IMG/VR virus record: IMGVR_UViG_3300047491_001293
Span: 20,312 to 84,311 of that record
Length of the DNA stretch: 64,000 nucleotides
Strand: one strand, 5' to 3'
Origin: a virus
A program made the translations under genes and the position numbers. The notes beneath the pieces were generated by a model that did not search any database, was not told where the DNA came from, and saw only the letters and a list, made by a program, of their open reading frames with translations. Of the stretch, positions 2,628-52,978 are shown piece after piece. Position 1 is the first letter of the stretch. Each line of letters opens with the position of its first letter.

Positions 2628-3485
2628 CTACAACAATGTTTTTCTTGAAAGTCTTTTTTTATACAAATCCTCAAGCTTGCCAATGGCCTCAATGTTGTTG
2701 ATCTTCTTTGACTGCAACTCCCTAAAGACATGCTGCGATGCTGGGATGCCAAATATTCTGGTCGCCGTCTCCACATCAAAAAAGCCACTCTCAAGGTGGC
2801 CAAGTATTCTTTGTGGTGTGTCGCAGAGACCATATATGAAACTTGATGGGGCATGTTTAACATTGAGGCACTTGCAATGGTGCTCCATCAGCCATTCACT
2901 TATCCACTTTACATTGTGGACCAACAGGTAGTAGTCCATGAGGTCATAGCACGAGCAAAGCTTGTCCATAGTGGCGGAGTCTGACATGAAGCAGTTGTCG
3001 GTCATCATGGCGTGGAAGCAATTTTTCGGGAAGCAAACATCGCCTGGGCTCATCTTGGCGGGTGAAATTTCAAGTATTCTTGCGTCAGGTCTGCTCCTGA
3101 TGACGAGATCGTAAGTCATGAAGTTTTTGTACTCATGCTCCCTCTTGAGGTCGTTTGCCGCACGCATCATGAAGTAGTAGTTGTAGTTGTCGGCGCCACT
3201 TCTGCCCTTGTGGAATCCTGCATCGTAAGGTCTTCTCTGGCGCATGTTGTCGTACTTCATGACATGTGCGCTGTAAACAACATCATAGCAGTAGACCATG
3301 TGCGACTTTGGGTTGAGAACTTCCAGAGCTTCATTTATCCGTGCTGCAGACTTTGAGCCAACATCCTCGTTGTCCCATGTCGCAAGAAAGCAGTCAGCCT
3401 GTACGGTCTCAAAAAATCTCTTGTGGAATGGGGCCATTCTTTGCAACTCACGCAGGTGACCAGACATGCAGATAGCCACTTTCAT
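2628..3485 (-). CDS. Glycosyltransferase-like phage protein
   Basis: MKVAICMSGHLR...YDLVIRSRPD, a family common in phage glycosylation islands; ATGA overlap with upstream gene. Confidence 0.6.
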   Translation of the reverse strand: MKVAICMSGHLRELQRMAPFHKRFFETVQADCFLATWDNEDVGSKSAARINEALEVLNPKSHMVYCYDVVYSAHVMKYDNMRQRRPYDAGFHKGRSGADNYNYYFMMRAANDLKREHEYKNFMTYDLVIRSRPDARILEISPAKMSPGDVCFPKNCFHAMMTDNCFMSDSATMDKLCSCYDLMDYYLLVHNVKWISEWLMEHHCKCLNVKHAPSSFIYGLCDTPQRILGHLESGFFDVETATRIFGIPASQHVFRELQSKKINNIEAIGKLEDLYKKRLSRKTLL

Positions 3486-4090
3486 CTTTTGAACCTCTTC
3501 TTGACGATTACCTGTCCATGTGAGATCCTCAGATGGTCAATGCTTGATACCCCCTGGTTGGGAACCCTGTCGTTCCTGCCAGCCTCATCAACCAGATCCT
3601 TGACGAACCCAACCATCCCAGAGTAATGGCCTTTGGAAAATTGTTTTCCATCTATCCAGTTCGGCCAATAACCAGTGCCCCAGTCCTCAATTATGTAGAG
3701 ACCGCCTGGGCTGGTGAAATTGAAAAGAAAGTTGTATGAAAACCTTGCCACTTCACCAATGTGAGCCGCATCATCTATGATGATGTCGAATTGCTTGTGA
3801 TCATCTACGATTCTGCTGAGCACTTTGATGTCAGATTGGTCTCCGTGATAGAAAGCAGACCTATCCTCAAAGCCTTTTAAATTGGCGATGTTTAGGTTGT
3901 CAAGTCCAACAACAAATGCGTTTGGGAAATATGAAAGCCACATTTTCATGGATGCACCGTCATAGACACCGATCTCAAGAATTCTTACACTCTTCTCCCT
4001 GAGAGGCTCAAACAAGTCGGCATACACATCAATATACGACGCTATTTTGCCGTAACCATAGACTCTTGCTATGTCATGAAGTTTCTGCAT
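3482..4090 (-). CDS. Class I SAM-dependent (sugar O-)methyltransferase
   Basis: ILEIGVYDGAS, GDQSD, DIIIDDAAH, GGLYIIED. Confidence 0.85.
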   Translation of the reverse strand: MQKLHDIARVYGYGKIASYIDVYADLFEPLREKSVRILEIGVYDGASMKMWLSYFPNAFVVGLDNLNIANLKGFEDRSAFYHGDQSDIKVLSRIVDDHKQFDIIIDDAAHIGEVARFSYNFLFNFTSPGGLYIIEDWGTGYWPNWIDGKQFSKGHYSGMVGFVKDLVDEAGRNDRVPNQGVSSIDHLRISHGQVIVKKRFKR

Positions 4091-4297
4091 GAAATATCTA
4101 CATTGCCATGTTTATTTTTCATGTTGGATGATTACTTAACCACAAAAATTTCAAAGTAAAACAGCTATGTATAATCGTAAAAATAACACCAAAACATGAG
4201 GCGTTAGAGCGGTCAGACGACCTTGGGAGCATATATACATCAAGAATTGAATACAAGTGAAATGAAAGATGGGCATCCTTGATCGCAGGAGGCGAAA

Positions 4298-4903
4298 ATG
4301 GCTCTCAGATACTTTCTTTTCGATTTGGATGGCGTTCTCATAAACGCATGCGACTGGCATTATGAGTGCCTCAACATGGCCATGGAGCAGGTCGTCGGAT
4401 TCTCCATAAGCAGACAAGACCATGAAACAAAGTTCAATGGGCTTCCATCACAAACCAAGCTGAAAATGCTTGGTGTCATGCCACACCACCGAGAGATGAT
4501 ATGCGCCGAGAAAAGGCGGTTCATCCAGAAGAAGATAGACATGTACAAACAAGACCAATCAAAGATTGATCTTTTGAGCCACCTTTCTGGCATTGGCAAG
4601 GTGGCATGCGTGACAAACTCAATAAGAAGCAGTACAATAGCCATGCTTCGTGCGGTGGGTGTTGTGTCCAGCATGTCTCTGCTTGTGACAAACGAGGATG
4701 TCAAAAACCACAAGCCAAGCCCAGAGCCATACAACATGGCAATGGAAATGCTTGGTGCAAACCCAGAGGAGACCCTTATCGTTGAGGACTCTCCATTTGG
4801 GTTGCAAGCTGCGGTGTGCAGCCGTGCATCGGTGATCTGGAAGGTCAAAGATGCAAGTGAGGTAAACTTGAATGGATTCAAATCAAGGTTTGGAGGCCTA
4901 TGA
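4298..4903 (+). CDS. HAD-family phosphatase
   Basis: FDLDGVL motif I, VTNS, KPSPEPY, IVEDS; AGGAGG SD. Confidence 0.9.
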   Translation: MALRYFLFDLDGVLINACDWHYECLNMAMEQVVGFSISRQDHETKFNGLPSQTKLKMLGVMPHHREMICAEKRRFIQKKIDMYKQDQSKIDLLSHLSGIGKVACVTNSIRSSTIAMLRAVGVVSSMSLLVTNEDVKNHKPSPEPYNMAMEMLGANPEETLIVEDSPFGLQAAVCSRASVIWKVKDASEVNLNGFKSRFGGL

Positions 4904-5628
4904 AACTTGTAATACCAATGGCTGGCGATGGGACCAGGTTCTCCCAATGTGGTTACGATCTGCCAAAGCCTCTGATAGATGCGTGCGGCAAACCAATCAT
5001 ATCCCATGTTATTGGCAATTTCAACTCATTGGCAATAGACGAGGTGGTGTTCATATGTCGCCAAGAGCATGAGGACAAGTATGGCATCTCTTCAAGGCTT
5101 GAGGTTCTATGCGGCAGGCGCAAGTCAAGATTTGTTTTCGTGAACAAGCTCACTGAGGGGGCTGCCTGCTCCCTGCTGTTAGCCAAGGATTACATCGACA
5201 TTGATGATTCGATCATAATCGCAAACTCAGACCAGTATGTGTCATGGGACATCAACAAGTTCCTGTCCTCATGCCAGGGTCTGGATGGGTGCATCCTCAC
5301 ATTTAGGTCAAGTGACCCAAAATGGAGCTATGCAAAATTGGGCAGCAACGGCCTGGTCAAGTGTGTTGCTGAGAAGGTCGCCATAAGCGACATGGCAACC
5401 GTTGGAATATACCACTGGGCTAGGGGCTGTGAGTTCGTCTCATGCGCCGAGCAGATGATAAGGAAGAACATAAGGACAAGGAATGAGTTCTATCTGTGCC
5501 CAGTGTACAATGAGGCGGTTGAGGCTGGTCTTTCGATAGGGATACACGAGATAGACAGCCATGACATGTGGGGGCTGGGAACTCCAGAGGATCTGGAAAA
5601 ATTCAAGTCAGGCTTCTGTGGGTCATGA
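4900..5628 (+). CDS. Sugar-phosphate nucleotidyltransferase (dTDP-glucose pyrophosphorylase-like)
   Basis: IPMAGDGTRF..PKPLI, ANSDQ, AEK, GLGTPEDL; ATGA overlap. Confidence 0.88.
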   Translation: MKLVIPMAGDGTRFSQCGYDLPKPLIDACGKPIISHVIGNFNSLAIDEVVFICRQEHEDKYGISSRLEVLCGRRKSRFVFVNKLTEGAACSLLLAKDYIDIDDSIIIANSDQYVSWDINKFLSSCQGLDGCILTFRSSDPKWSYAKLGSNGLVKCVAEKVAISDMATVGIYHWARGCEFVSCAEQMIRKNIRTRNEFYLCPVYNEAVEAGLSIGIHEIDSHDMWGLGTPEDLEKFKSGFCGS

Positions 5629-6454
5629 GGGTAACAATATATGTCATCACCTATAGGAATGACAGGATCCTGAATGAGTGGTTTCTTGCGTCCCTAGCAA
5701 AATCAAGCTACCCAAGGGAAAAGGTATGTTTGCAGATCCAGAACAACTTTTCCGACAAAGTCAGCATTGATGACGCACACAGGACGCTCATCAACTACAT
5801 CCACCACAACACCATGAGGCTGGATAGGTCTACAGGCCACTTGGCCAGAGACTGGAACCATGGTATCATGAATGGAATGGTCGATCTGGACAGGCCAAAA
5901 TCTGATGTGGTGATGCTTCTCCAGAATGACAATAGGCTTGAGCCAGACTGGTATGAGAGGGTTTGCAAGGCCATGTCAGAAAACACATTCGCCTCCTACG
6001 GCGCAGGCGACCAGTGCATGCTTGTCCGCCCAGCTTGCGTCAAGAGGGTTGGCATGTTTGACGAGAGATTCTGTGACATATACCTTCAAGAGGGTGATTA
6101 CTTCTTGCGGTGCATATGGCGCATACCAATGCACGCATATCGATCAATGACGACTACCATGGTAGGGTTCACAGGCCATCGCCTGACTTCTGCCCAGTGG
6201 TGCGAACCTTGACTGGATCGCAGAGGCGTGGGGGTTACCACATGGCATCTGTTGGCAACCACCAAGTATCGGTCGGCTTTTGGAGAAAGAAATGGCCATT
6301 CCATGACAGGGGTTGGAGATCAACCTGGAACCTTGCCAAGTCGGTGGCGCACAGTGGAGCCCCATTTGTACTCATGTACATGATGTACCCATACTTTGAA
6401 AGGGCGATTGATCGTAGCGTCTATGAGAAATGGTCGCCCTTCAAGCTGCAATAG
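5625..6454 (+). pseudogene. Frameshifted GT-A glycosyltransferase paralog (copy 1)
   Basis: ORFs 5625-6212 and 6110-6454 together align with the intact paralog 6465-7289; 2 extra nt near 6138-6140. Confidence 0.8.
6048..6138. repeat. 91-bp exact direct repeat, second copy at 6888-6978
   Basis: GTTGGCATGTTTGACGAGAG...CCAATGCACGCAT identical in two otherwise divergent paralogs. Confidence 0.95.
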
Positions 6455-6464
6455 GTAACTAACC

Positions 6465-7289
6465 ATGAACATCACGGTCTATGTCGTAACATACAAAAAC
6501 GACATAATCTTGAATGAATGGCTACTTGCATCACTAGCAGAATCAAGATACCCAAAGGGCAAGGTGCGCCTACACATACAGAACAACTTTTCTGGCATGG
6601 TTGCAATTGACGAGCCATATAGATCACTCATAGATCACATCCACCACAACACCGTCAGGCTCGATCGCTCTCTAGGGCATCTGGCCAGGGACTGGAACCA
6701 TGGAATCATGCATGGGTTTGTCGATCTGAAAAATCCAAGGTCAGACATGGTTATGCTTTTACAGAATGACACCAAGCTGACAAGTGACTGGTATGAAAAG
6801 GTGTGCGGTGTCATGCGTGGCAACTATTTCGCATCATACGGGGCTGGTGACCAGTGCGTTCTAATCAGGCCAGAATGCATAAAGAAAGTTGGCATGTTTG
6901 ACGAGAGATTCTGTGACATATACCTTCAAGAGGGTGATTACTTCTTGCGGTGCATATGGCGCATACCAATGCACGCATCTATAAATGATGATCACCATGT
7001 CAGGACGCATAGGCCAATGCCAGATTCATGCCCAGTAGTCAAAACGGAAACTGGCTTGCAGAGGCGTGAGGAGTACCACACATACTCACCAGAGAAAAAA
7101 ATATCAGCTGAATTTTGGAACAAGAAATGGCCTTTTTATGACAGGCCATGGGGGTCAAGCTGGGAATTGGCAAAGTCTGTGTCTCAGAGCGGTTCGCCAC
7201 TCGTCCCCATGCACATCATGTACCCATACTTTGAGAGGGACATTGACAAAAATGTTTATGAAAATTGGTCTTCTTTCAAACTACAATAA
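6465..7289 (+). CDS. GT-A (GT2-like) glycosyltransferase paralog (copy 2)
   Basis: VTYKND, GHLARDWNHG, LLQND, VGMFDERF..EGDYFLR. Confidence 0.8.
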   Translation: MNITVYVVTYKNDIILNEWLLASLAESRYPKGKVRLHIQNNFSGMVAIDEPYRSLIDHIHHNTVRLDRSLGHLARDWNHGIMHGFVDLKNPRSDMVMLLQNDTKLTSDWYEKVCGVMRGNYFASYGAGDQCVLIRPECIKKVGMFDERFCDIYLQEGDYFLRCIWRIPMHASINDDHHVRTHRPMPDSCPVVKTETGLQRREEYHTYSPEKKISAEFWNKKWPFYDRPWGSSWELAKSVSQSGSPLVPMHIMYPYFERDIDKNVYENWSSFKLQ

Positions 7290-7300
7290 GTAATTAAATC

Positions 7301-8122
7301 ATGAAAATTACAATTTATGTTATAACTTATAAAAATGACAAAATTTTAAATGAATGGCTCCTTGCATCTTTGGCAAATTCAAACTATCCAAAAGATAAAA
7401 TTTGTTTACATATACAGAATAATTTTTCTGATAAAGTTGTTATTGATAAAGAATTTGAAACTTATGTAAATTACATTCACCATAATACAATAAGATTAAG
7501 TAGATCATTTGGTCATTTATCAAGAGATTGGAATCATGGAATCATGAATGGTTTTGTTGATTTAAACAAACCAAGATCTGACATGGTGATGCTTTTGCAA
7601 AATGATACAAAATTAACAAGTGATTGGTATGAAAAAACATGTGATGTTATGCAAGATAATTATTTTGTATCTTTTGGAGCTGGCGATCAGTGCATGATTA
7701 TTCGTCCAGAGTGTGTTAAAAAAGTTGGAATGTTTGAAGAAAGATTTTGTAGTCTCTCATGGCAAGAATATGATTATTTTTTGCGTTGTATTTTAAGAAT
7801 ACCAATGAAAACATCGATAAATGATGAATATCATCAAAGATTGCATAGACCATTAAATTATCTTTGCCCAATTAAAAAAACAGAAACTGGTATGGAGAGA
7901 AAAGAAAATTATTTTTTGGCTGGGACACATTACGAATCTGAAAATTTTTTAAAGAAAAAATGGCCTTGTCGAGATATGTGGGGCGAATCATCATGGCTTC
8001 TTGCAAAAAAAATTTCTCAAAGCGGGGCGCCACTCGTCCCCATGTACATCATGTATCCATACTTTGAGAAAGACATTGATCAAAGCGTCTACAAGCAATG
8101 GTCACTATTCAGGTTGGCCTAA
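7301..8122 (+). CDS. GT-A (GT2-like) glycosyltransferase paralog (copy 3)
   Basis: Same motifs as copy 2; visibly AT-richer codon usage. Confidence 0.8.
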   Translation: MKITIYVITYKNDKILNEWLLASLANSNYPKDKICLHIQNNFSDKVVIDKEFETYVNYIHHNTIRLSRSFGHLSRDWNHGIMNGFVDLNKPRSDMVMLLQNDTKLTSDWYEKTCDVMQDNYFVSFGAGDQCMIIRPECVKKVGMFEERFCSLSWQEYDYFLRCILRIPMKTSINDEYHQRLHRPLNYLCPIKKTETGMERKENYFLAGTHYESENFLKKKWPCRDMWGESSWLLAKKISQSGAPLVPMYIMYPYFEKDIDQSVYKQWSLFRLA

Positions 8123-8535: not shown

Positions 8536-8536
8536 C

Positions 8537-9452: not shown

Positions 9453-9454
9453 GA

Positions 9455-10126
9455 TCAGATAAGCTTAACCAATGACAGCCACTGTATTGGCAAATCAATG
9501 CCTCCCGGTCTGTTGCTGTAGTCCAAATTTTTCATTGGGTATTTTCTCATGTCAAATCTGACATCATTAAATTGTTTTTTGTTGGCAAGAGTTATCTCCA
9601 CAGCAACAGGCACCATGCAATCAACATGACCATAATTGTTTCCATGGACATGAACAACATGGTGCGTTTCAAGCATCTTTTCCATAACTGAAATTGGAAT
9701 TCTTTTTGGATTCATGTGAAAGTGCAATTCAAAAGCAAAGCATGAAACATGTTTTGAAAAATGCTCTTGGTCTAGGGTGTCGAAGAAAGTCCATTCGGAT
9801 CCTTCGGTGTCTATTTTAAGTATGACATTATTTGATTTTGAAACCTCTTCAAGGCTTGAGAAATCACTATAACATTTCAATGTTTTCTGCCTTGCCCATG
9901 GGATATTGCGTTTGGCATGCATGTCGAAACCTATTACATTTATACCCCTTTTGATGATATCATTCTCAAATGTCACATTGTTGCCGAGACCGTATGACAC
10001 ACAAATGTCGGAGTTTTTTAGGCATTTTTCCGGGAAGACATAACCACCATCACAATTGTTTCCAAGACGAACCTTGTTTGTTTTGATTGGCCTTATGTGT
10101 TGCATCATCCATAAAAATCTTTCCAT
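9455..10126 (-). CDS. FkbM/Methyltransf_22-like methyltransferase
   Basis: RLGNNCDGGY, SYGLG, LKIDTEGSEW, HVHGNN; start MERFL after GAGG; TAAATA at 10159-10164. Confidence 0.75.
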   Translation of the reverse strand: MERFLWMMQHIRPIKTNKVRLGNNCDGGYVFPEKCLKNSDICVSYGLGNNVTFENDIIKRGINVIGFDMHAKRNIPWARQKTLKCYSDFSSLEEVSKSNNVILKIDTEGSEWTFFDTLDQEHFSKHVSCFAFELHFHMNPKRIPISVMEKMLETHHVVHVHGNNYGHVDCMVPVAVEITLANKKQFNDVRFDMRKYPMKNLDYSNRPGGIDLPIQWLSLVKLI

Positions 10127-10204: not shown

Positions 10205-11071
10205 ATGAAGATAACACTGTTTGTTGTGACATATAAAAATGACAAAGTTTTGAATGAGATGGTGCTCAAGTCTCTGCATGATTCCAAATACCCACATGAT
10301 CTAGTAAATGTCAAAATACTGAACAATTTTGGAGACAGAATTGAGATAGATGACAAATTCAAGCCACTCATCAATGAGATTCACCACAACACCATAAGAT
10401 TAGACAATTCAACTGGTCACTTGGCGAGAGATTGGAACCATGGCATCATGAATGCATTTGTAAGCCTTAAAAAGCCAAGGTGTGATGCCGTCATCCTTCT
10501 GCAAAATGACACCATCATGAAAGAAGACTGGTACCTCATAGCAAAAAAATGCGTGAATGAATTTTCATATTGCTCCTTTGGATGTGGTGACCAGTGCCAG
10601 ATAGTTAGACCTGACGCAATAGCCAGAATAGGCATGTTTGATGAGAGATTCTGCAACATTGGCTTTCAAGAGTGCGATTATTTCATTCGTGCAGTATTAA
10701 GGGAGAAAGAAAGGTGCTCAATCAATGACCCAAGCCATGGTAGAATTTTCAACCAAAGAAGTGATTTAAACCCAATAGTACCAACAATTTCAGGTTTTTT
10801 AAGAAGAGATTCACACCATATGGAATCCTTTAATTTTCATCATGTTTCCAAAAGTTTTTTGATAGAGAAATGGGGAGCGCCTATAGTTCCACCATGGGGC
10901 AACACAAAGGATCTGGCAAGATTGCTGTTGGAGTCAAAGGCGCCTTTCAGAAAAATGTGGAAAATGTACCCATACTTTGAGAATGACATAGATCAAAATG
11001 CCTATTTAACCGATAATTATTTCCATGGAAAAAGTATTGAAAACGAAAAGAAAAGAATAAAACTTATATGA
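10205..11071 (+). CDS. GT-A glycosyltransferase paralog (copy 4)
   Basis: Same motifs as 6465-7289 (GHLARDWNHG, LLQND, GMFDERF). Confidence 0.8.
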   Translation: MKITLFVVTYKNDKVLNEMVLKSLHDSKYPHDLVNVKILNNFGDRIEIDDKFKPLINEIHHNTIRLDNSTGHLARDWNHGIMNAFVSLKKPRCDAVILLQNDTIMKEDWYLIAKKCVNEFSYCSFGCGDQCQIVRPDAIARIGMFDERFCNIGFQECDYFIRAVLREKERCSINDPSHGRIFNQRSDLNPIVPTISGFLRRDSHHMESFNFHHVSKSFLIEKWGAPIVPPWGNTKDLARLLLESKAPFRKMWKMYPYFENDIDQNAYLTDNYFHGKSIENEKKRIKLI

Positions 11072-12706: not shown

Positions 12707-13348
12707 ATGGTCATAAACGACAGCCAAAAACTAATTTTTTTTATGACGCCACGATGCTCGTCCACCACCCTCCATGAACTGATAACAAGTAATTTCACGG
12801 GTTGTAGGACGATAACATCGACCACCAGCGCCGGGGTTGTGCACCACCACACCAGAATGGCTGGCATGTGGGAAAGCAAGTACTACAAATACACAGCAGT
12901 CGTGCCAACGAGGCCACTGCTGGAATGGGCGGTGTCTTGTTACAACAACTTCGTTGGCAACTTCCCGCACCACAACTTCTCGTCTTCTTTTGATGACTTT
13001 GTTGTCAACATGCGTGGCATCGACACTAGATATGGCGATGAAATGACTGGATTCAACTGGTTCCAGCATTCTCCACAGAACATGATTGCCCTTGGGCGTG
13101 GAAGGCTGCCGAATTTCACGAGAATAGTGACATTAAGGCATGATCACCTTCTGGAGGACATGTGGCAGATCATAGAGAGTGGGTTCCACAAGAACATGTT
13201 CATTCCCAATGTTCGAAGAAATTCATGCCATCCAGTCGCAAAGGTGAACATATCCGATGATGTCAAAAGAACCATCGTCAAGCTTTGCTGCCCATTTGGC
13301 GAAGACTGGGATGAAAAGCAAAGGGCAAAAATAGCAAAATTACCATGA
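12707..13348 (+). CDS. Sulfotransferase-like protein (divergent)
   Basis: FFMTPRCSSTTL resembles the 5'-PSB loop; RPLLEWAVSCY resembles the 3'-PB motif; TAAATA 5 nt upstream. Confidence 0.55.
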   Translation: MVINDSQKLIFFMTPRCSSTTLHELITSNFTGCRTITSTTSAGVVHHHTRMAGMWESKYYKYTAVVPTRPLLEWAVSCYNNFVGNFPHHNFSSSFDDFVVNMRGIDTRYGDEMTGFNWFQHSPQNMIALGRGRLPNFTRIVTLRHDHLLEDMWQIIESGFHKNMFIPNVRRNSCHPVAKVNISDDVKRTIVKLCCPFGEDWDEKQRAKIAKLP

Positions 13349-29219: not shown

Positions 29220-29274
29220 ATTGATTTTCCCATGCGTCAAGAGTATCATGTCCCTAGAAAGAAGGGAGTCTGAC

Positions 29275-31899: not shown

Positions 31900-33543
31900 A
31901 TGTCAAATGGAATAACAAGTCAATCTGGACCAGCATATAAATCAGTTGTAGTTGAATACAAAGACGGGGCATCCAACATAACCGTAACTCCAGAAACACC
32001 CTTGCCAGTTACTGGGACTATTACAACTGGAGATTCTGGTTTACCAGAAGCAGATCCGCTTCCAGTATTTCAACCAGTTTCACAAGGAGCTTTTGGTGAT
32101 CAAATAGTAGCAAATCTAAGTCAAGAAATTTCATTAATGTTTAATTATCATGTAGATTCAGATGTGTTAAGCACTTTAACACAGAGCAGTGCCAGTGTAA
32201 CCACAGCTAATTCAAAAATGATTTTAGCAACTGGTGGTGTTATGGGGTCTTTAGCCGTTGTAAAAAGCAAAGATTATTTAAGATACAGACCCGGATATGG
32301 TGGACTGGCTAGATTTACTTTGGGAGTAACAACAGGATACACTGGCACCGAACAAACTGCTGGAGTTGGAAATGAAGAGGATGGCTTTTTTTTCAGCTAC
32401 AGAGATCATGATGAGTCTGGAAATCCAGATATGTGTATTGTAAGAAGATCTTTTGGTGCAAGAGAAATAAGATACCTTACGATAACAAATGGATCAAGCT
32501 CCGCTGCCAACACAACAATTACTCTTAATAGTGTTGCTGTAACCGTTGCTGTAAGCAACAATTCTAATGCAGTAAATCAAACTGCAACCAATATAGCAAA
32601 TAATTTTACCTCTACTGACTGGACAGCTTCAGCACATGGCAACATAGTTGTGTTTCGTGCTGTGCATGCTGGTGTAAAAAGTGGAACATATAGCTTTTCC
32701 GCTGGCACATCTGGAATTACCACAAGTCCATCTGGAGAACTCACTCAAAAAGTAGCTGGTGTCAACAAAAACGAAGAAGTCATTTCAAGTGCCAACTGGA
32801 ATTATGATAAAGCTGATGGTACGGGAACTTTGCCAGATTTAGATTGGAGCAAAGGAAATGTGTACCAGATCAAATATCAGTGGTTGGGATATGGTATGAT
32901 TCAGTTTTATATTGAAGATCCAACTTTGGGAAGATTTATTAGAGTTCACGCTATAGAATATGCAAATACAAGCACCATTCCAACCGTGGGCAATCCCACA
33001 TTTCCATTTTACTTTCACGCAAGTAATTCCAATTCAGTACAAAATATAAGCATGTTTACTTCATCATGTGGTGGTTTTGTGGAAGGAAATACTGGCAGAA
33101 GCACTGGAGGAAATCAAAAAACATATACTGTATCAGATAGTTGTGGAGATTCTGGGACCCTAATAGCAACTCTGTTTAATCCAAATAACTTTAAAAGTAA
33201 AAATTCCAGAGTTCAAGTGTCCATTTCTGATATTTCTGCTTCGGCTGCCTCGCCAGTAACATTTAGATTTTACAGAAATGCAGCTTTGACTGGGACAGCA
33301 AGTTGGACTTCTATAGGAACCAACAGTTGCATGTATTATGACGAGGGATCTACAAGTTTTTCTGGTGGTGATTTAGCCTGTGCGATACGAGTAGAACATC
33401 AATCAAACAATAATTTAACTGCCAGAGACATTAGCGATGGCATTTTAACATTACATCCGGGTGACACATTAAGCATTGTCGCCACTTCAGATTCTGGCAC
33501 CGTTAAAGTTGGATGTTCAATCAACTGGGTTGAATACTTATAA
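31900..33543 (+). CDS. Putative virion structural protein (beta-rich)
   Basis: 547 aa Ser/Thr/Gly/Asn-rich; RYRPG and YQWLGYG motifs; late promoter. Confidence 0.6.
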   Translation: MSNGITSQSGPAYKSVVVEYKDGASNITVTPETPLPVTGTITTGDSGLPEADPLPVFQPVSQGAFGDQIVANLSQEISLMFNYHVDSDVLSTLTQSSASVTTANSKMILATGGVMGSLAVVKSKDYLRYRPGYGGLARFTLGVTTGYTGTEQTAGVGNEEDGFFFSYRDHDESGNPDMCIVRRSFGAREIRYLTITNGSSSAANTTITLNSVAVTVAVSNNSNAVNQTATNIANNFTSTDWTASAHGNIVVFRAVHAGVKSGTYSFSAGTSGITTSPSGELTQKVAGVNKNEEVISSANWNYDKADGTGTLPDLDWSKGNVYQIKYQWLGYGMIQFYIEDPTLGRFIRVHAIEYANTSTIPTVGNPTFPFYFHASNSNSVQNISMFTSSCGGFVEGNTGRSTGGNQKTYTVSDSCGDSGTLIATLFNPNNFKSKNSRVQVSISDISASAASPVTFRFYRNAALTGTASWTSIGTNSCMYYDEGSTSFSGGDLACAIRVEHQSNNNLTARDISDGILTLHPGDTLSIVATSDSGTVKVGCSINWVEYL

Positions 33544-34320
33544 AAGTTTTATCGGCCTTGCGGGTATCTCGGCGACAATTCCACGCTTGTGCATCCTGAA
33601 ATTTGGGTACATGAACTTGTAAGCGACCTCGACGCTGTCGCTGAACTGGTTTGTGGTGGCCTGTATGATTATATCGCCATCAACACCAAGAGTTCCACTA
33701 AGGTGCGACATTCCAGAGTCTATCCCAAAGAATGACTTACAAGAAAGAAGGAATTTTGCTTGCTCATAAAGTGTAGTGAAGTTAACTGGCATGTCGGGAA
33801 AGAAATTCCTGCTTCCAGGTCCGCCAATTGCATAGGTGTTGCCTCCACTGAACTTTTTTATGGCCCTCTCCATCTCTTGTAGTGTGAACCTTGGCTTGTC
33901 ATGCCTGGGTGAATGACCATTCAATTGGAAGCATTTGTGCCCCCTTTTTTCTGGCATTGGAATGCGTGGCCTTGGAAGCGAAAATGTTTCCAGCGGGTCT
34001 GGCCTGCATGATGAGTGCCCGAAATTTAGTGCGCACCAATAGGCAGTTCCAAGGCGGCCAAGGTTGAGCATCCTGCCAAATCTAAAGTCATGCTTCAAAC
34101 CATCGACCTTCGTTACTGGCTCTATGTAACCCTCATAGTCAAATATGCTCATTATCTGTCTGCCGATCTCTTGCCTTACGAAGTGTATCTTGGCCTTGAA
34201 GCCATCCCTCTTTGCGCAGTTGTAGACAATGTTGGTGAACACCTGGATGTCGCCATAGTGGACGGGCTCTATCTTGAACATTTCAACTCTGTCGCACTGC
34301 AAATCGATGTCTTGGTTCAT
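33538..34320 (-). CDS. GT9-like (GT-B) glycosyltransferase
   Basis: N-terminal HYGD; CKSFFGIDSGMSHLSGTLG. Confidence 0.7.
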   Translation of the reverse strand: MNQDIDLQCDRVEMFKIEPVHYGDIQVFTNIVYNCAKRDGFKAKIHFVRQEIGRQIMSIFDYEGYIEPVTKVDGLKHDFRFGRMLNLGRLGTAYWCALNFGHSSCRPDPLETFSLPRPRIPMPEKRGHKCFQLNGHSPRHDKPRFTLQEMERAIKKFSGGNTYAIGGPGSRNFFPDMPVNFTTLYEQAKFLLSCKSFFGIDSGMSHLSGTLGVDGDIIIQATTNQFSDSVEVAYKFMYPNFRMHKRGIVAEIPARPIKLL

Positions 34321-37196: not shown

Positions 37197-38022
37197 TTGG
37201 AAGATACATGTGCCCGTGCCAGATGGCATAGGAAATGCAGATTTCACGCCGCCATCACTTAGATCACAGCCAAAAGTGAATTTCATAATATCAACTTGCG
37301 ACAGGCCAGCGGCATATATCCACAAAATGCTTGCGACAATGTTCATGGGTGGATTCCCAATTGAATACAAACTAAACCTTGTCGTATCTGGAGACGAAAC
37401 AAAATACCTTGACTGCTACAAGCACATGCCAAACATCAGGATATACAAGTGGAACTCGGATGAATGGGGCAGAGTTAAGTCGTTGCCGGTAAAGTTCAGG
37501 GCGAGCTACAACTACCTGCAGTGCTTAGGCATAAACGATTACGAGAACAGCTTGATATTTGAGGATGACTTGGTTTTCCAGCACAATTGGCTTGGCAAGC
37601 TATTCAAGTGCATCACTGCCGCAGAGATTGATGGATACGACAATTACATGATGACACTGTTCTGCCAAAACAAATGCAGAACCACAAAATTATACGCAAA
37701 GGTTCCACGCATAACATGGGCTGGAACACAGGCAATGTACTACCCAGAGAAAGTGCTGCGGGTCATAAGGCCATTCGTGCAGCAAGTCACTGAAATTGTT
37801 TCAAAGGTCCAGTCTGAGCCCAGCAACCCACTCTACCTCAACGCATACGACATGCTTGTTAAGGAGTGCGCCATAATGGATGGTGTTGACATACTTGCCC
37901 CATGCGAGTCTCTGGTGCAACACATAGGCTCACAAACAGCGGGCGGCACTGGCCAAGATATAATGAAAAGCCCAATTTTCCATTCATGCAAGCTTGATGG
38001 TGTCGGTGGCGATGCCCCTTGA
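37171..38022 (+). CDS. GT-A glycosyltransferase-like protein
   Basis: LIFEDD, GTQAMYY, D..V, LVQHIG. Confidence 0.7.
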   Translation: MIVPPKRIDWKIHVPVPDGIGNADFTPPSLRSQPKVNFIISTCDRPAAYIHKMLATMFMGGFPIEYKLNLVVSGDETKYLDCYKHMPNIRIYKWNSDEWGRVKSLPVKFRASYNYLQCLGINDYENSLIFEDDLVFQHNWLGKLFKCITAAEIDGYDNYMMTLFCQNKCRTTKLYAKVPRITWAGTQAMYYPEKVLRVIRPFVQQVTEIVSKVQSEPSNPLYLNAYDMLVKECAIMDGVDILAPCESLVQHIGSQTAGGTGQDIMKSPIFHSCKLDGVGGDAP

Positions 38023-38883
38023 CCATTGAAAGCTCTTGAAGCTTACTGGTGGGTTGCTTCTGTTGACAAAACCAAAAGGCTTCTTCTCATAGTACAGCCA
38101 TGCTGGATTCTCTTTTGATTTCTGGCTCGTCACAAAATGAAAACCCTCCATTTCGTCTGTTCTTTCTTTTATTCTGTAAATGTGCTCTGGATACTTTGAG
38201 AAATATGTGGTCAATATGCCTGGTTCAGAGTTGTGATAGTTGAAGATTACGGGATCTGGTATGACATAGTGATCTATTGTCATTACAAGTCTTGCCGTAA
38301 GACCCTGCTCATCAAACCAATTGTCCCAGTTGTTGGAGTTCTCAATGATAGCACCAGTTATGTCATAATTTGGAGGAAAGCCAAAAATCCCTGCATTGAT
38401 CGGTTGCATAGGGATATTTTTTTTTATCATGTCCAAGGTGTTGGATCCAAGACTCGTGTTGATTCCCCTATTTGCAAAAGCCTTGTTTGAGGAAAAAAAC
38501 TTGTTGATATGGCTTCCACGAGCCAGAAGAACAAGGTCTGAGTCAATGTAAACCTCATGGCTCTGCATGCGAAGTCTGGGTGGGTAAAATTTCCATCCCG
38601 TATTCTTTGGAGCTAGTGGAAGGCTGCCAGTGTCTGCAGCAACACAAGAAACTCCATACTTACCAAGCTCATCTTGGAACCTTGCAAGCGCATCTGGCCT
38701 AAAGCAAGTGTTGAATACAGCGACACCGTCGGCGATGTCGCCGTAAAGAACGCTGAATGTTCGGCAGCTTTCAAATAATATTTTGTTTCCAAATGGACTT
38801 GGTCCAACCGTCCACCTAAAAAGAGGTCTATTGTTGCCCTTGTTTTTTTCTATGAACTCTGATGCCGAAAATTTATGTGGCAT
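37984..38883 (-). CDS. GT-A (GT8-like) glycosyltransferase-like protein
   Basis: WKFYPPR, YIDSDLVL, INAGIFG, DEQG, HF. Confidence 0.65.
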   Translation of the reverse strand: MPHKFSASEFIEKNKGNNRPLFRWTVGPSPFGNKILFESCRTFSVLYGDIADGVAVFNTCFRPDALARFQDELGKYGVSCVAADTGSLPLAPKNTGWKFYPPRLRMQSHEVYIDSDLVLLARGSHINKFFSSNKAFANRGINTSLGSNTLDMIKKNIPMQPINAGIFGFPPNYDITGAIIENSNNWDNWFDEQGLTARLVMTIDHYVIPDPVIFNYHNSEPGILTTYFSKYPEHIYRIKERTDEMEGFHFVTSQKSKENPAWLYYEKKPFGFVNRSNPPVSFKSFQWSRGIATDTIKLA

Positions 38884-38886
38884 CAA

Positions 38887-40019: not shown

Positions 40020-40023
40020 TCAA

Positions 40024-48579: not shown

Positions 48580-49218
48580 ATGAAATTATTTGTAGTACAC
48601 ACACATGTATGCACCCTTAAGTTTGTGCCAAAGCTGCACTTCATACAAAAGCACGACTTAAATCAGCTTCAAATGGACAGATTCACTGAAAACTGCCTTG
48701 CCGAAAATAGGATGCTGTACTATTTATCGCAGAACATTCATCTTTTGGACGACATCCATGTTGGCCTCGCCAGCGCTAGATGGAATGAAAAATATAGATG
48801 CATGAGGATACACCAGCTTCAGCTGCTAAAACCAGATGAAGAAACTGTTTATGCCGCTGAGCCAACGAACCGATGGTACGATGACAGCGAGTCAAACCAC
48901 CCAGGCATGCAGGGTTACATGCATGAGATAATGGACAGAAATGGGTGGAAAGAAACCAGTGGCATGTCATTTTACTCGAACAACTTTGTGTGCCACAGGA
49001 ACACCATGGTGGCGTTCCTGAAATGGTGGGTTGACAATTTTCAACACTTTTACGCAAAGCACAACAACCAATTCCATTTCAACAACAACTACAGAAGATA
49101 CAACCCAAAATTGCACCAGGCGTACTTCTACGAGCGACTTACCATCTTGTACTTTGCTAACCAAAAATATAAAATCAAGCCGATTGGCAACATTGAAGGC
49201 CACATCAAACTTTTATAG
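48580..49218 (+). CDS. DUF4422-like glycan-modifying protein
   Basis: LAE, FYSNNFV, AYFYERL; TAGATA 5 nt upstream. Confidence 0.5.
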   Translation: MKLFVVHTHVCTLKFVPKLHFIQKHDLNQLQMDRFTENCLAENRMLYYLSQNIHLLDDIHVGLASARWNEKYRCMRIHQLQLLKPDEETVYAAEPTNRWYDDSESNHPGMQGYMHEIMDRNGWKETSGMSFYSNNFVCHRNTMVAFLKWWVDNFQHFYAKHNNQFHFNNNYRRYNPKLHQAYFYERLTILYFANQKYKIKPIGNIEGHIKLL

Positions 49219-50446: not shown

Positions 50447-50448
50447 AT

Positions 50449-51150: not shown

Positions 51151-51167
51151 ACAAAGGTATTAGAGTC

Positions 51168-52274
51168 ATGATAGGAATTTCATCATCATCGTGCGAACCA
51201 CATGATTTCGACCACATCAATGAAGTTGTTGAAAGTGGCTGGCTTGGCCCTGGGAAGTATGTCAATGCTGTTGAGAGCCTCATGGAGAAAAGACTTGGAC
51301 GCCCGTTCGTTCTGGTCAACAATGGAACGAATGCCATACAACTATCTTTGAGAATGCTTGGATTGCCACATGGCTCAAAGGTTATAGTGCCAAGCTTTAC
51401 ATTTGTCGGTTGCGTTAACGCTATAATCCTTGAGGGTTTAATCCCAGTATTCTGTGATGTATCTGAAGATGATGGCAATATCACAAAGAAAACCGTAAAG
51501 GACTCTTGGCGACGGGGCGTCCGAGCAATTCTTGCCGTTCATTATGGCGGCAAGCCATGTTGCGTATCAGACATATCCAGCCTTGGAGTACCAATTATAG
51601 AGGATGTGGCACACGCCATTGACAGCAAAATTGGAGACAAATTTTGTGGAACAATTGGTGATTCCGGATGCTTTTCTTTCGATCCCATAAAAAATGTATC
51701 AAGTCCTGACGCTGGTGGGATCGTCTTTAAAGATGAGAAATCAGCATCCATGGCAAGATCGTTAAGGCACTGCGGTTTGAATCAAACCTCTTATGACGCA
51801 TCCCTAAAAAAGAAAATATGGTGGCAACATGAAGTTGTTGGCACTTTTCAGAAATGCATACCTAACGATATTTCAGCTGGTGTAATATTATCTCAAATGA
51901 AGAGACTTAATGAACTTCAAAAAAAAAGGAAAGCCATATGGAATTTTTACCAAGAAAATTTAAATGGGACAAAAATTAGGCTTCCTTCTCCACCTGAAAA
52001 AGGAACACAGCATAGTTATTTCACATATCTTATAAGGCACAATAAAAGAAACGAACTGGCGAGTTTTTTGCTGAAGAACAACATATACTCAACACTACGG
52101 TGGTATCCTCTCCACAAACAAAAAATATTTAAAAGTTTTTCTTATTCTGATCTTAAAGCCACCAATAGACTTTCGCAGACTGGCTTGAATATACCAGTCC
52201 ACACAAGAATGACGGAAAATGACGCACTTAAAGTTGTTCGTGCCATAAAAATGTTTTTGGGGAATGTTTCATGA
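51168..52274 (+). CDS. DegT/DnrJ/EryC1/StrS sugar aminotransferase
   Basis: VNNGT, PSFTF, VHYGG, IEDVAHA, FSFDPIKN. Confidence 0.92.
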   Translation: MIGISSSSCEPHDFDHINEVVESGWLGPGKYVNAVESLMEKRLGRPFVLVNNGTNAIQLSLRMLGLPHGSKVIVPSFTFVGCVNAIILEGLIPVFCDVSEDDGNITKKTVKDSWRRGVRAILAVHYGGKPCCVSDISSLGVPIIEDVAHAIDSKIGDKFCGTIGDSGCFSFDPIKNVSSPDAGGIVFKDEKSASMARSLRHCGLNQTSYDASLKKKIWWQHEVVGTFQKCIPNDISAGVILSQMKRLNELQKKRKAIWNFYQENLNGTKIRLPSPPEKGTQHSYFTYLIRHNKRNELASFLLKNNIYSTLRWYPLHKQKIFKSFSYSDLKATNRLSQTGLNIPVHTRMTENDALKVVRAIKMFLGNVS

Positions 52275-52978
52275 AAATAGCATCAACCATGATAGTCAGA
52301 AATGAAGCCGACATAATATCAACTTGTGTAGAAAACACTCTTGAACAATGTGACAAAATAATGGTTGCCAACAATGGCTCAAACGATGAAACATTGTCCA
52401 TACTAGGAAATTACAAAGAAGTTGAAGTTTACGAATTTGATGGTTTATACAAGCATGGCGAGGCGCACAACATGCTAATAAGCAAATGCTCCGAATACGA
52501 CTGGGTGGTTCCAATTGATGCCGATGAGATATGGCATGGCATAGTCAATGCCTGTTCATCGGCAAGCACACACACGCTTGTTGTGCCAACCATAAAGCAC
52601 TACATGGCAATGGTTGATGAATGCATATTCAAGCAAGAAAACTTCCCTTACTTTAAGATGGAGGGAATACTTGAATACCCAAGGCTAATATTCAAGCCTA
52701 CACACATGGGAAGGCCAGTTTGCGTTGACGATGGATGCCACAACAATGGCATCAAGGATAGTTCAGTAACCAATTTGGTCGCAATAGATCACTTTCCAAA
52801 GAGATCTTCCAACCAATACCACAAAAAGATAAGCCATGGATATGGCTCATTCATCAAAAGGAAGACACCAGACCAGGTTGGGAGGCACTGGAAACCATGG
52901 TATGAATCCATAGATGATGGGTCGTTTCATGAAAAATTCAAAATGGAATTGAATGCCAACAGAAGTTTGCTTTTATGA
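52271..52978 (+). CDS. GT2-family glycosyltransferase
   Basis: VRNEADII, NNGSNDET, WVVPIDADE, HFPKRS. Confidence 0.85.
   Translation: MKIASTMIVRNEADIISTCVENTLEQCDKIMVANNGSNDETLSILGNYKEVEVYEFDGLYKHGEAHNMLISKCSEYDWVVPIDADEIWHGIVNACSSASTHTLVVPTIKHYMAMVDECIFKQENFPYFKMEGILEYPRLIFKPTHMGRPVCVDDGCHNNGIKDSSVTNLVAIDHFPKRSSNQYHKKISHGYGSFIKRKTPDQVGRHWKPWYESIDDGSFHEKFKMELNANRSLLL

What the first reader, a model, noticed from the sequence alone, without database searches (positions are those of the whole stretch)
2628..52978. Shared C-terminal K-L-x tag on unrelated glycan-modifying enzymes
Seen: eight proteins end in K-L-x-stop: FKLQ (6454), FKLQ (7289), VKLI (9455, methyltransferase), IKLI (11071), AKLP (13348, sulfotransferase-like), IKLL (33538, GT9-like), IKLA (37984, GT8-like), IKLL (49218, DUF4422-like). 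Near variants: FRLA (8122), KTLL (2628), SLLL (52978). They span at least six families and are scattered over 50 kb on both strands. Among the other genes I find KLx-stop only on the DUF5522 peptide (DKLL). Inference: a convergently added docking or sorting signal that recruits late-expressed enzymes to a common scaffold such as a virion-glycosylation site, or a degron for the phage ClpX. I know of no description of such a tag.
Basis: partly seen in the sequence, partly recalled or inferred. Interest (0 to 1): 0.8.

Follow-up and report, generated by a model that had tools for sequence, protein, structure and literature searches.

The report
Shared K-L-x tail on phage sugar enzymes
In a giant freshwater phage, six or seven unrelated sugar-handling enzymes all end in the same short peptide (hydrophobic-Lys-Leu-any), which is kept in related phages and looks like a docking tag whose reader is still unknown.

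Summary
All 11 quoted termini read as stated. In the 84-kb record, which CheckV rates 19% complete, 9 of 133 ORFs end K-L-x against 0.76 expected. Eight of these are hydrophobic-K-L-x and lie on sugar-enzyme-like proteins; the ninth is an HNH endonuclease. The count survives a look-elsewhere test.

Corrections: four carriers are paralogs of one GT2-like family. ORF 6110-6454 is the 3' half of a frameshifted copy. That leaves 6-7 independent tails.

The motif acts at protein level:
- Codons vary, and no DNA box occurs at other offsets.
- Relatives of 60-85% identity keep K-L in 5 of 5 cases, while linkers diverge and the last residue drifts.
- Relatives below 40% carry it at background rate, 3 of 239.
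- The tails are low-confidence ends of two AF2 models with GT-A folds.

Best reading: a lineage-specific C-terminal docking peptide for a shared partner not yet identified (0.5). Rivals: a glycosyltransferase lid or acceptor tail, a degron for the phage's canonical ClpX, or chance.

The scan noted a comparable LSFSL tail on sugar enzymes in another freshwater giant-phage lineage. I did not test that note.

The parts
5625..6454 (+). Frameshifted fourth copy of the GT2-like paralog family. Its 3' half (ORF 6110-6454) ends FKLQ.
   Evidence: tblastn of the 6465 protein: residues 1-171 match in one frame (74% identity) and 172-274 in another (63%). Tail read.
6465..7289 (+). GT2-like glycosyltransferase ending FKLQ.
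   Evidence: The family search gave 126 relatives; 15 of the 120 listed carry PF00535 and one is named a GT2 protein of Vibrio sonorensis. Members of its 90% cluster end FKLA, FKLQ, FRLA or FKLI.
7301..8122 (+). GT2-like paralog ending FRLA, a Lys-to-Arg variant of the tail.
   Evidence: Its 90% cluster holds FRLA (2) and FKLA (2).
9455..10126 (-). Possible FkbM-like methyltransferase ending VKLI.
   Evidence: Pfam Methyltransf_21 scores E 0.013, below the cut-off. The 223-aa form is the one on record. Cluster tails are VKLI (8) and VKLL (3).
10205..11071 (+). GT2-like paralog whose linker is 12 residues longer, ending IKLI.
   Evidence: The 67% relative P0025 ends KIKLL.
12707..13348 (+). Sulfotransferase-like protein (a lead only) ending AKLP.
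   Evidence: In the Atlas feature search, 18 of 30 hits fall in a Sulfotransfer_2 set. Cluster tails are AKLQ (8) and AKLP (7).
33538..34320 (-). GT9-like protein (a weak lead) ending IKLL.
   Evidence: Relatives end PIKLL (83% identity) and DIKIL (54%). The L003 ortholog keeps IKLL through synonymous changes (AAA CTT TTA to AAG CTT CTT). Atlas: 2 of 30 hits are in a Glyco_transf_9 set.
37984..38886 (-). GT-A-fold, GT8-like glycosyltransferase ending IKLA.
   Evidence: AF2 model: pLDDT 71.8, with residues 277-300 below 50. Foldseek hits WbbM, UGGT, GT8, glycogenin and LgtC. Relatives of 70-72% identity end SIKLT and AIKLI; relatives of 46-48% end SILF, VSMI, VSLI, AILF and SNLI.
48580..49218 (+). 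GT-A-like protein (closest to WbbM and GT6) ending IKLL.
   Evidence: AF2 model: pLDDT 95.8, falling to 69 and then 46 over the last 12 residues. Foldseek hits WbbM 6u4b, then GTA/GTB. Relatives end NIKLK, HTKLL, NSKLF and YFKLI. The L003 ortholog ends HVKLS.
2628..3485 (-). Near variant ending KTLL, with Lys at -4 and Leu at -2. Membership of the tag set is uncertain.
   Evidence: Cluster tails are RKTLL (7) and RKILI (2). The only family hit is an unnamed PHROG.
52271..52978 (+). GT2 glycosyltransferase ending SLLL, a near variant without Lys. Probably not a member of the tag set.
   Evidence: Cluster tails are RSLLL (10) and KSLLL (5).
62870..64000 (-). Phage ClpX, the candidate reader in the degron rival. 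It runs off the contig end.
   Evidence: NCBIfam ClpX equivalog: E 3e-151, 504 bits against a cut-off of 359, covering profile positions 47-404 of 418. GYVG, RKH and IGF are conserved against E. coli ClpX.
29055..29282 (-). 75-aa Cys-rich peptide ending DKLL. Taken as a chance KLx, because position -4 is acidic.
   Evidence: It has no PHROG family.

Best explanation
The tail hydrophobic-Lys-Leu-any-COOH is a selected, lineage-specific short linear motif. A clade of freshwater giant phages has added it, on flexible linkers of varying length, to the C-termini of at least six unrelated transferase-type sugar enzymes. These are GT2-like, GT8-like and WbbM/GT6-like GT-A enzymes, a possible GT9-like protein, a possible FkbM-like methyltransferase and a possible sulfotransferase.

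Most likely it is a docking peptide. Leu at -2, the hydrophobic residue at -4, Lys at -3 and the free carboxylate would fit into a pocket of one shared partner, and the last side chain would point away. This would gather the glycan-tailoring enzymes at one site, either an assembly line or a common acceptor.

Shown here: the motif, its enrichment, its conservation at protein level, its absence from distant relatives, and its position on a low-confidence tail.
Inferred only: that it docks, that there is a single partner, and what the gathering achieves. The partner is not identified. It may lie in the roughly 81% of the genome that is not in this record, or in the host.
For: Enrichment:
- 9 of 133 ORFs end KLx against 0.76 expected. 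The count survives a look-elsewhere test (8 or more in 3 of 5000 trials, never 9).
- Hydrophobic-K-L-x occurs in 8 of 107 ORFs of 100 aa or more, all of them sugar-enzyme-like.

Protein level, not DNA level:
- Lys is coded by AAA or AAG, and Leu by CTT, CTG, CTA or TTA.
- AARCTT falls exactly on codons -3 and -2 five times, and at most twice at any other offset from -30 to +60.
- The 33538 ortholog in sister contig L003 keeps IKLL through two synonymous changes.

Conservation with distance, over 293 relatives of four families:
- KLx in 3 of 3 at 85% identity or more, 5 of 5 at 60-85%, 3 of 13 at 45-60%, 2 of 33 at 40-45%, and 3 of 239 below 40%.
- Fisher test, 10 of 51 against 3 of 239: p 2.4e-6.

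K-L fixed while its neighbours drift:
- Clusters at 90% identity show FKLA/FKLQ/FKLI/FRLA, AKLP/AKLQ and VKLI/VKLL.
- Orthologs show IKLA/SIKLT/AIKLI and HIKLL/HVKLS/NIKLK/HTKLL.

Anchored to the terminus, not to the fold:
- Paralog 10205 has 12 extra linker residues yet still ends KLx.
- P0148 has about 36 residues after the domain, against 12 in the window protein, and still ends KLx.

Flexible tail: pLDDT is below 50 for residues 277-300 of the 37984 model, and falls from 98 to 46 at the end of the 48580 model.

Unrelated carriers: among 10 tagged or near-tagged proteins, only the three GT2-like paralogs match each other at E 1 or better.
Against: - No reader was found. The 84-kb record has no PDZ_2 or TPR_16 match, but it is only 19% of the genome.
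- Fifteen of the 23 sugar-related ORFs lack the tail, including GT2, GT90, TylF and other methyltransferases. The tag is therefore not a general label of the pathway.
- In the more distant clade member L004, the 37984 ortholog ends SNLI and 0 of 12 ORFs end KLx. Relatives of 45-60% identity keep the tail in only 3 of 13 cases.
- Lys at -3 is raised in this genome in general.
- The two proteins modelled have GT-A folds, and the C-terminal tail of GT-A enzymes is known to act within the enzyme itself (PMC6591795, PMC7185993, passages read). An intramolecular role cannot be excluded for them.
- All evidence is computational.
Confidence: 0.5

Rival explanations
1. The tail works within each enzyme, or on its substrate. 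It would be a mobile C-terminal lid, or an arm that binds the acceptor or the membrane. Its Lys would contact a phosphate of the nucleotide sugar or of a lipid-linked acceptor, and its Leu would pack on top. It would have converged because the enzymes share one acceptor.
For: - 37984 and 48580 have GT-A folds closest to GT8, WbbM and GT6.
- In GTA/GTB the C-terminal tail is visible only in the closed form and is locked by Arg352 (PMC6591795, passages read).
- The GT-A C-terminal tail (HV3) is a hypervariable region that carries family-specific acceptor motifs (PMC7185993, passages read).
- Low pLDDT of the tails fits a lid as well as it fits a docking peptide.
- The tagged set is made of transferases, while the nucleotide-sugar enzymes (HAD, NTP transferase, DegT) are untagged.
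Against: - The linker differs by 12 residues between paralogs and by about 24 between homologs, while the motif stays at the very end.
- Proteins that do not look like GT-A enzymes (9455, 12707, 33538) carry the motif in the same register.
- Relatives below 40% identity, presumably with the same chemistry, lack it.
- The known membrane-targeting tail of TagA is 49 residues long, not 3-4 (PMC8784642, passage read).
Confidence: 0.2
2. The tail is a C-terminal degron read by the phage's own ClpX, working with a ClpP from the phage or the host. This would time the removal of the sugar enzymes during the infection cycle.
For: - The record encodes a canonical ClpX (E 3e-151). Its GYVG pore loop, RKH loop and ClpP-docking IGF loop are conserved.
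- ClpX reads unstructured C-terminal degrons of two classes, represented by the ssrA and MuA tags (PMC12723719, passages read).
- Some tails have a MuA-like run of basic residues before a hydrophobic end: EKKRIKLI, RAKIAKLP, KKRLSRKTLL.
Against: - The last residue varies freely and includes K, P, Q, S and T. From my recall of ssrA mutagenesis, ssrA-type recognition depends on the terminal Ala-Ala and the carboxylate.
- Most tails have no basic cluster.
- No ClpP is present in the 84 kb, though most of the genome is missing.
- This idea gives no reason why only transferase-type sugar enzymes would be marked.
Confidence: 0.15
3. The pattern reflects chance, paralogy, composition or a DNA-level signal at gene ends, with no function of its own.
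For: - Four carriers are paralogs and one of those is broken.
- Lys is generally enriched at -3.
- Five of eight tails use AARCTT, and both IKLL tails use AAA CTT TTA.
- About one KLx end is expected by chance. The HNH endonuclease (REKLG) and the DKLL peptide look like those chance cases.
Against: - After the four paralogs are collapsed to one, 7 tails remain. The look-elsewhere null reached 7 or more in 25 of 5000 trials.
- K-L is kept in relatives while flanks and synonymous sites change.
- AARCTT shows no excess at other offsets near stop codons.
- The sequence after the stop differs from gene to gene.
Confidence: 0.05

Closest known systems
HbYX motif (hydrophobic-Tyr-any) at the C-termini of proteasome activators
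   Same: It has the same grammar: a hydrophobic residue, one conserved residue next to the end, a free-choice last residue and a required free C-terminus. It is used by several different proteins to dock on one partner (abstracts of PMC11475706 and PMC10349882, seen in the search listing).
   Different: The conserved residue is Tyr at the penultimate position. There is no Lys, and the partner is the 20S proteasome, for which nothing speaks here. The resemblance is in form only.
ClpX C-terminal degrons (C-motif-1, ssrA AANDENYALAA; C-motif-2, MuA CILEQNRRKKAI)
   Same: They are short unstructured C-terminal tags read by one machine, and the phage encodes a canonical ClpX (PMC12723719, passages read).
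   Different: Neither ends in K-L-x. The last residue is free here. Most of these tails lack the basic run seen in MuA.
Mobile C-terminal tails of GT-A glycosyltransferases (GT6 GTA/GTB Arg352; the HV3 region)
   Same: They are flexible C-terminal tails with a basic residue close to the end, on enzymes of the same fold as 37984 and 48580 (PMC6591795 and PMC7185993, passages read).
   Different: Those tails are inherited within a family and sit at a fixed distance from the core. This one is shared across unrelated folds, varies in linker length and is absent from distant family members.
Peroxisomal targeting signal PTS1 (SKL or AKL at the C-terminus)
   Same: It is a C-terminal tripeptide containing Lys and Leu that sorts many unrelated enzymes through one receptor (abstract start of PMC2120261; the rest is from my recall).
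   Different: The register differs: Lys-Leu are the last two residues in PTS1 and the second and third from the end here. PTS1 belongs to eukaryotic organelles, and nothing suggests homology.
LSFSL tail on sugar enzymes of another freshwater giant-phage lineage (scan notes e1-6019437 and e1-6019442)
   Same: One glycosyltransferase and two kinds of methyltransferase share a conserved, flexible C-terminal peptide that was read as a docking tag with an unknown partner.
   Different: The peptide is different and the carriers are fewer. These are AI notes that I did not check. No sequence link to this phage was found.

Membership tests
ClpX C-motif-1 (ssrA-like) degron | The C-terminus ends in small nonpolar residues (Leu-Ala-Ala-COOH) | tested here: not met
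   The last residue is Q, I, P, L, A, K, S, T, M or F across the window and its relatives. The ssrA tag sequence is taken from PMC12723719.
ClpX C-motif-2 (MuA-like) degron | A run of basic residues just before a short hydrophobic end (RRKKAI) | tested here: inconclusive
   A basic run is present in 10205 (EKKRIKLI), 12707 (RAKIAKLP) and 2628 (KKRLSRKTLL). It is absent from 33538, 37984, 48580, 9455 and 6465.
ClpX degron (either class) | Degradation by ClpXP that depends on the tag | not testable with these tools
   This needs a degradation assay.
HbYX docking motif | A penultimate Tyr preceded by a hydrophobic residue | tested here: not met
   The penultimate residue is Leu in all 8 tails.
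PTS1 | [SA]-K-L as the last three residues | tested here: not met
   K-L sits at positions -3 and -2, followed by one further residue, in all 8 tails.
PDZ-binding C-terminal peptide (classes I-III; classes recalled) | A hydrophobic last residue and a class-defining residue two positions before it | tested here: not met
   The last residue is not constrained. There is no PDZ_2 match in the 84 kb.
Small heat-shock protein I-x-I/V groove ligand (motif recalled) | Hydrophobic-x-hydrophobic tripeptide in a flexible C-terminal extension | tested here: met
   Positions -4 and -2 are hydrophobic in 8 of 8 tails. The phage has an Hsp20 whose own tail contains ITI. The pattern alone is weak evidence, and it explains neither the conserved Lys nor the fixed distance from the end.
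Small heat-shock protein I-x-I/V groove ligand | Binding to the alpha-crystallin domain groove | not testable with these tools
   This needs a binding experiment.
GT-A C-terminal lid (HV3) | A flexible tail after the last core element | tested here: met
   The last 24 residues of 37984 and the last 12 of 48580 have low pLDDT.
GT-A C-terminal lid (HV3) | The motif is conserved within the enzyme family and keeps its spacing from the core | tested here: not met
   Only 3 of 239 relatives below 40% identity carry KLx. The linker length varies by 12 to about 24 residues.
Beta-clamp-binding motif QL[SD]LF / QLxLxL (recalled) | A leading Gln and Leu at fixed positions | tested here: not met
   No tail has Gln at the required position.

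The most novel reading that the evidence does not exclude
Giant freshwater phages may run a private protein-sorting code. Lineage-specific C-terminal peptides (hydrophobic-K-L-x here, LSFSL in another lineage noted by this scan) would collect the transferases of a glycan pathway onto a dedicated hub. The hub, encoded by the phage or the host, would read the free C-terminus, and the result would be a phage 'glycosylation factory'. The tag and its reader would co-evolve, which would explain why the peptide differs between lineages and fades with distance.
Probability: 0.35. Interest if true: 0.8.

Novelty: new variant of a known kind. Interest (0 to 1): 0.62.

Why it matters
Short C-terminal tags that sort many proteins through one reader are well known in cells, for example ssrA, PTS1, HbYX and clamp-binding tails. 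The full-text searches turned up no description of such a tag on phage sugar enzymes.

If the tail docks these enzymes on one partner, it would show how a giant phage organises a multi-enzyme glycan pathway inside the host. It would also provide a handle to find that partner by pull-down with a four-residue tag. A third use would be a sequence rule for finding co-operating enzymes in uncultured phage genomes.

A comparable tail in another lineage was noted by this scan, though I did not check it. That hints the principle may be general.

Tried and rejected
DNA-level signal (promoter, terminator, recombination box): rejected. AARCTT falls only at the in-frame offset, codons vary, the sequence after each stop differs, and the L003 ortholog carries synonymous changes.

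Chance or composition: rejected by the internal-window and column-shuffle nulls and by the position-specific counts.

Family assignment of the tagged proteins by HMM:
- Pfam gave 0 families for 10 of 10 at E 0.01 or better. In a second run at E 1 or better, only a weak FkbM hit and GT2 on 52271 appeared.
- PHROGs gave one weak galactosyltransferase hit for 6465 (E 0.0022); 2628 matched an unnamed PHROG and 52271 matched glycosyltransferase PHROGs; the other 7 of the 10 scanned had none.
- NCBIfam gave nothing for the four tagged or near-tagged proteins scanned (9455, 12680, 33538, 2628).
- Pfam on the 66 members of the 48580-family alignment gave no GT family.
- Profile searches of the PDB with A4 and A5 gave 0 matches.

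Relatives in IMG/VR:
- Three scans found none.
- A fourth found one locus of 29% identity.
- The single metagenome scan gave 5 loci.
- GenBank phages gave no megablast match and no tblastn match for 33538.

A search for a reader in the 84 kb found no ClpP, PDZ_2 or TPR_16.

The answer was 'no answer', with a score of 0.01 against a mark of 0.34. This is no evidence either way.

Scan look-up by sequence for 37984 found nothing.

Supplementary files of papers were not consulted, because they were closed. They might hold motif tables for huge-phage proteins that bear on the novelty claim.

Full report
WHAT THE DNA IS. The window is the last 64 kb of an 84,311-bp IMG/VR virus record that CheckV rates 19% complete. 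It is therefore a fragment of a phage of roughly 400 kb or more. The closest GenBank relative of its virion protein (31900-33543) is the 485-kb uncultured phage LR745208, at 31% amino-acid identity. The record encodes the following:
- a large set of sugar-pathway genes: HAD phosphatase, nucleotidyltransferase, DegT aminotransferase, ATP-grasp ligase, TylF and other methyltransferases, and GT2 and GT90 glycosyltransferases;
- a C5 DNA methylase and HNH endonucleases;
- an Hsp20, two AAA ATPases and a canonical ClpX.

THE OBSERVATION. Three corrections apply.
- 6465, 7301 and 10205 are paralogs of one GT2-like family, at 49-68% identity.
- ORF 6110-6454 is the 3' half of a fourth, frameshifted copy spanning 5625-6454.
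- The genes at 9455 and 12680 start further in, at 10126 and 12707.
This leaves 6-7 independent tails. A ninth KLx ORF lies upstream of the window. It ends REKLG and is an HNH endonuclease.

IS IT MORE THAN CHANCE?
- A greedy, non-overlapping set of 133 ORFs of 60 aa or more has 9 KLx ends, against 0.76 expected from the internal KL dipeptide frequency. IKLx occurs 4 times against 0.07 expected.
- The motif was chosen after looking, so I asked how often any dipeptide at any of four end offsets reaches such a count. With random internal windows of the same proteins, the maximum was 8 or more in 3 of 5000 trials, 7 or more in 25 of 5000, and never 9. A column shuffle, which keeps the excess of Lys and Leu that the motif itself creates, reached 9 or more in 42 of 5000.
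- Lys at -3 is raised in general (24 of 107 ORFs of 100 aa or more, against 7.9 expected). Leu at -2 is raised only through the motif (17 in all, 9 of them KLx). With these position-specific rates about 1.3 KLx ends are expected.
- Eight of the nine have a hydrophobic residue at -4. The exceptions are the HNH endonuclease (Glu) and, among shorter ORFs, the 75-aa DKLL peptide (Asp). These fit the one or so expected by chance.
- In 150 kb of LR745208, 0 of 127 ORFs of 100 aa or more end KLx. This is a weak control, because that genome has 54% GC.

PROTEIN LEVEL OR DNA LEVEL?
- The eight tails use AAA or AAG for Lys, and CTT (five times), CTG, CTA or TTA for Leu.
- CTT is the commonest Leu codon in this genome anyway, at 28%.
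- AARCTT lies at the in-frame offset five times, and at most twice at any other offset between -30 and +60 of stop codons.
- The sequence after each stop differs. Three of the tagged genes (9455, 33538 and 37984) lie on the minus strand, and two of these (33538, 37984) overlap a convergent neighbour at the stop.
- In the sister contig L003, the ortholog of 33538 keeps IKLL with AAA CTT TTA changed to AAG CTT CTT, among many synonymous changes nearby.
The constraint is therefore on the peptide.

CONSERVATION.
- Sister contig. L003 (Ga0049081_10000005; 20.9 kb of its 88 kb are held) is syntenic with window 27.7-49.2 kb at 55-94% protein identity. Its three orthologs of tagged genes end PIKLL, SIKLT and HVKLS.
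- 33538 family (3 relatives): PIKLL at 99% and 83% identity, DIKIL at 54%.
- 37984 family (20 relatives): IKLA, SIKLT and AIKLI at 70-99% identity. The six relatives at 46-48% end SILF, VSMI (twice), VSLI, AILF and SNLI. They keep Leu or Met at -2 and a hydrophobic end but not the Lys. The eleven shorter relatives at 26-36% lack this region.
- GT2-like family (120 listed of 126): KIKLL at 67%, PFKLA and SLKLM at 47-49%. Two others at 46-49% have no such tail. Of the 114 at 42% or less, one ends KLx (LEKLS); the commonest endings there are of the ..KYIVY kind.
- 48580 family (150 representatives): NIKLK at 60%, HTKLL at 46%, NSKLF at 40%, YFKLI at 44%, and two distant cases. Most alignments stop near residue 196 of 212.
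- Pooled by identity band: 3 of 3 at 85% or more, 5 of 5 at 60-85%, 3 of 13 at 45-60%, 2 of 33 at 40-45%, and 3 of 239 below 40%. Fisher test for 40-85% against below 40%: p 2.4e-6. One caveat: P0027, counted at 49% to 10205, is a near-identical relative of 6465.
- Clusters at 90% identity. K-L is fixed while the last residue changes: FKLA (5), FKLQ (3), FRLA (3), FKLI (1) and one truncated member; AKLQ (8) and AKLP (7); VKLI (8) and VKLL (3).
- Summary. The consensus is hydrophobic-K-L-x-COOH with a free last residue. It is specific to a lineage and fades with distance.

WHERE THE TAIL SITS.
- AF2 models built on alignments give 37984 a GT-A fold. Mean pLDDT is 71.8, and residues 277-300 are below 50. 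Foldseek finds WbbM, the UGGT catalytic domain, GT8 proteins, glycogenin and LgtC.
- 48580 gets a very confident fold (pLDDT 95.8). The last 12 residues fall to 69 and then 46. The best hits are WbbM and then the GT6 enzymes GTA/GTB.
- Linker length is not conserved. 10205 has 12 more residues than its paralogs before the same end. P0148 has about 36 residues after the domain, against 12 in the window protein.
- A motif that stays at the very end while the linker stretches is what one expects of a peptide read together with its free carboxylate.

WHO CARRIES IT.
- Among 10 tagged or near-tagged proteins, only the three GT2-like paralogs match each other.
- The labels are of uneven strength. 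GT2-like is supported by relatives. GT8-like and WbbM/GT6-like are supported by fold. Sulfotransferase-like and GT9-like are only language-model leads. FkbM is below threshold.
- I counted as sugar-related the 8 tagged ORFs plus 15 untagged ones: 7301, 2628, 3482, 4298, 4900, 11089, 15893, 30872, 36504, 44892, 47612, 49229, 50449, 51168 and 52271. KLx then occurs in 8 of 23 against 1 of 84 others (Fisher p 1.2e-5).
- This table is approximate. The greedy gene set picked an antisense ORF in place of the HAD gene at 4298.
- The tagged proteins are all transferase-type. The enzymes that make soluble nucleotide sugars are untagged, but so are several glycosyltransferases and methyltransferases.

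MECHANISM. The best-supported reading is a docking peptide for one shared reader (confidence 0.5). Residues at -4 and -2 would lie on one face of an extended peptide and enter a hydrophobic pocket. The Lys and the carboxylate would make polar contacts, and the last side chain would point away. This geometry is inference.
- The closest precedent in grammar is the HbYX motif: hydrophobic, one conserved residue next to the end, any last residue, free terminus (abstracts only).
- No reader was found.

RIVALS.
(a) GT-A lid or acceptor arm (0.2). The tail of GTA/GTB is ordered only in the closed state and locked by Arg352 (PMC6591795). HV3 tails carry acceptor motifs (PMC7185993). Against it stand the varying linker length, the carriers that do not look like GT-A enzymes, and the loss of the tail in distant relatives. 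The known membrane tail of TagA has 49 residues (PMC8784642).
(b) Degron for the phage ClpX (0.15). The ClpX is canonical, with GYVG, RKH and IGF conserved. ClpX reads C-terminal degrons (PMC12723719). Against it, the last residue is free, including K, P and Q, and most tails lack a MuA-like basic run.
(c) Chance, paralogy or a DNA signal (0.05).

COMPARISON AND NOVELTY. The tail fails the defining features of the ssrA-type degron, HbYX, PTS1, PDZ ligands and clamp-binding motifs; the rows are given in the membership test. It matches the bare hydrophobic-x-hydrophobic pattern of small heat-shock protein ligands, but that pattern explains neither the Lys nor the terminal position.

Six full-text searches turned up no description of such a tag on phage sugar enzymes. 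None of them could search for the motif itself.

The scan's own notes describe a shared LSFSL tail on one glycosyltransferase and two methyltransferases in another freshwater giant-phage lineage. I did not test those notes, and they are not independent evidence, but they suggest the principle recurs.

I class the finding as a new variant of a known kind (C-terminal sorting or docking peptides), with interest 0.62. The motif is real and selected, and it is easy to test. Its reader and purpose are open.

Noticed in passing
window 5625-6454: A fourth GT2-like paralog is split by a frameshift near 6138-6140. Its two halves still match the 6465 protein at 74% and 63% identity, and it still ends FKLQ. 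It could be a pseudogene, an assembly error or a programmed shift.
   Followed up: partly
window 62870-64000 (minus strand, runs off the contig end): This is a canonical phage ClpX with GYVG, RKH and IGF conserved against E. coli ClpX. The match starts at profile position 47, so the zinc-binding N-domain is either beyond the contig end or absent. No ClpP is present in the 84 kb.
   Followed up: partly
window 24738-25208: A phage Hsp20 whose own C-terminal extension holds an I-T-I motif (..RITIKQKPK).
   Followed up: partly
whole 84-kb record, ORFs of 100 aa or more: Lys is enriched at position -3 from the C-terminus beyond the KLx set: 24 of 107 against 7.9 expected, and 15 of 98 once the KLx ORFs are removed. 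Lys at -2 is also raised (17 of 107).
   Followed up: partly
L006 (Ga0123335_1005299), 1-10568: This contig, at 48% GC, looks bacterial: it holds IS200/IS605-like transposase genes, a radical-SAM protein and a sulfotransferase-like protein. It holds a 34% relative of 37984. 'KL' occurs within the last five residues of 4 of 10 ORFs (QKLFK, KKLII, RKLYV, GKLF), against a null mean of 0.23. I noticed this after looking, so the test is post hoc.
   Followed up: partly
window 9455-10126; protein cluster: One member of the 90% cluster of this protein is deposited as 'MAG: hypothetical protein [Chitinophagaceae bacterium]' on a 1,965-bp contig. It may be a mis-binned phage contig, and it hints at a Bacteroidota host.
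   Followed up: no
window 34995-36170 (minus strand): A classic-clade AAA ATPase, with weak FtsH- and PAN-like matches, carries an unassigned N-terminal part of about 200 residues. It lies between the tagged genes 33538 and 37984 and is 85% conserved in L003.
   Followed up: no
window 49229-50446: An ATP-grasp ligase gene (PylC-like and D-Ala-D-Ala-ligase-like hits) starts about 10 bases after the stop of tagged gene 48580. The Pfam survey also lists a GGACT (gamma-glutamyl cyclotransferase-like) domain somewhere among the window's ORFs, which I did not locate.
   Followed up: no
window 37984-38022: The tail-coding end of 37984 (minus strand) overlaps the end of the convergent gene 37171-38022 by 39 bases. 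The stop of 33538 overlaps the end of 31900-33543 by 6 bases.
   Followed up: no
window 39471-40296; L004 2162-3190; L007 17040-17935: Two adjacent genes with no family assignment, of 182 aa and 90 aa, travel with the 37984 family. They appear in L004 (79% and 73% identity) and in the distant L007 (40% and 46%), so they are better conserved than the glycosyltransferase itself.
   Followed up: no
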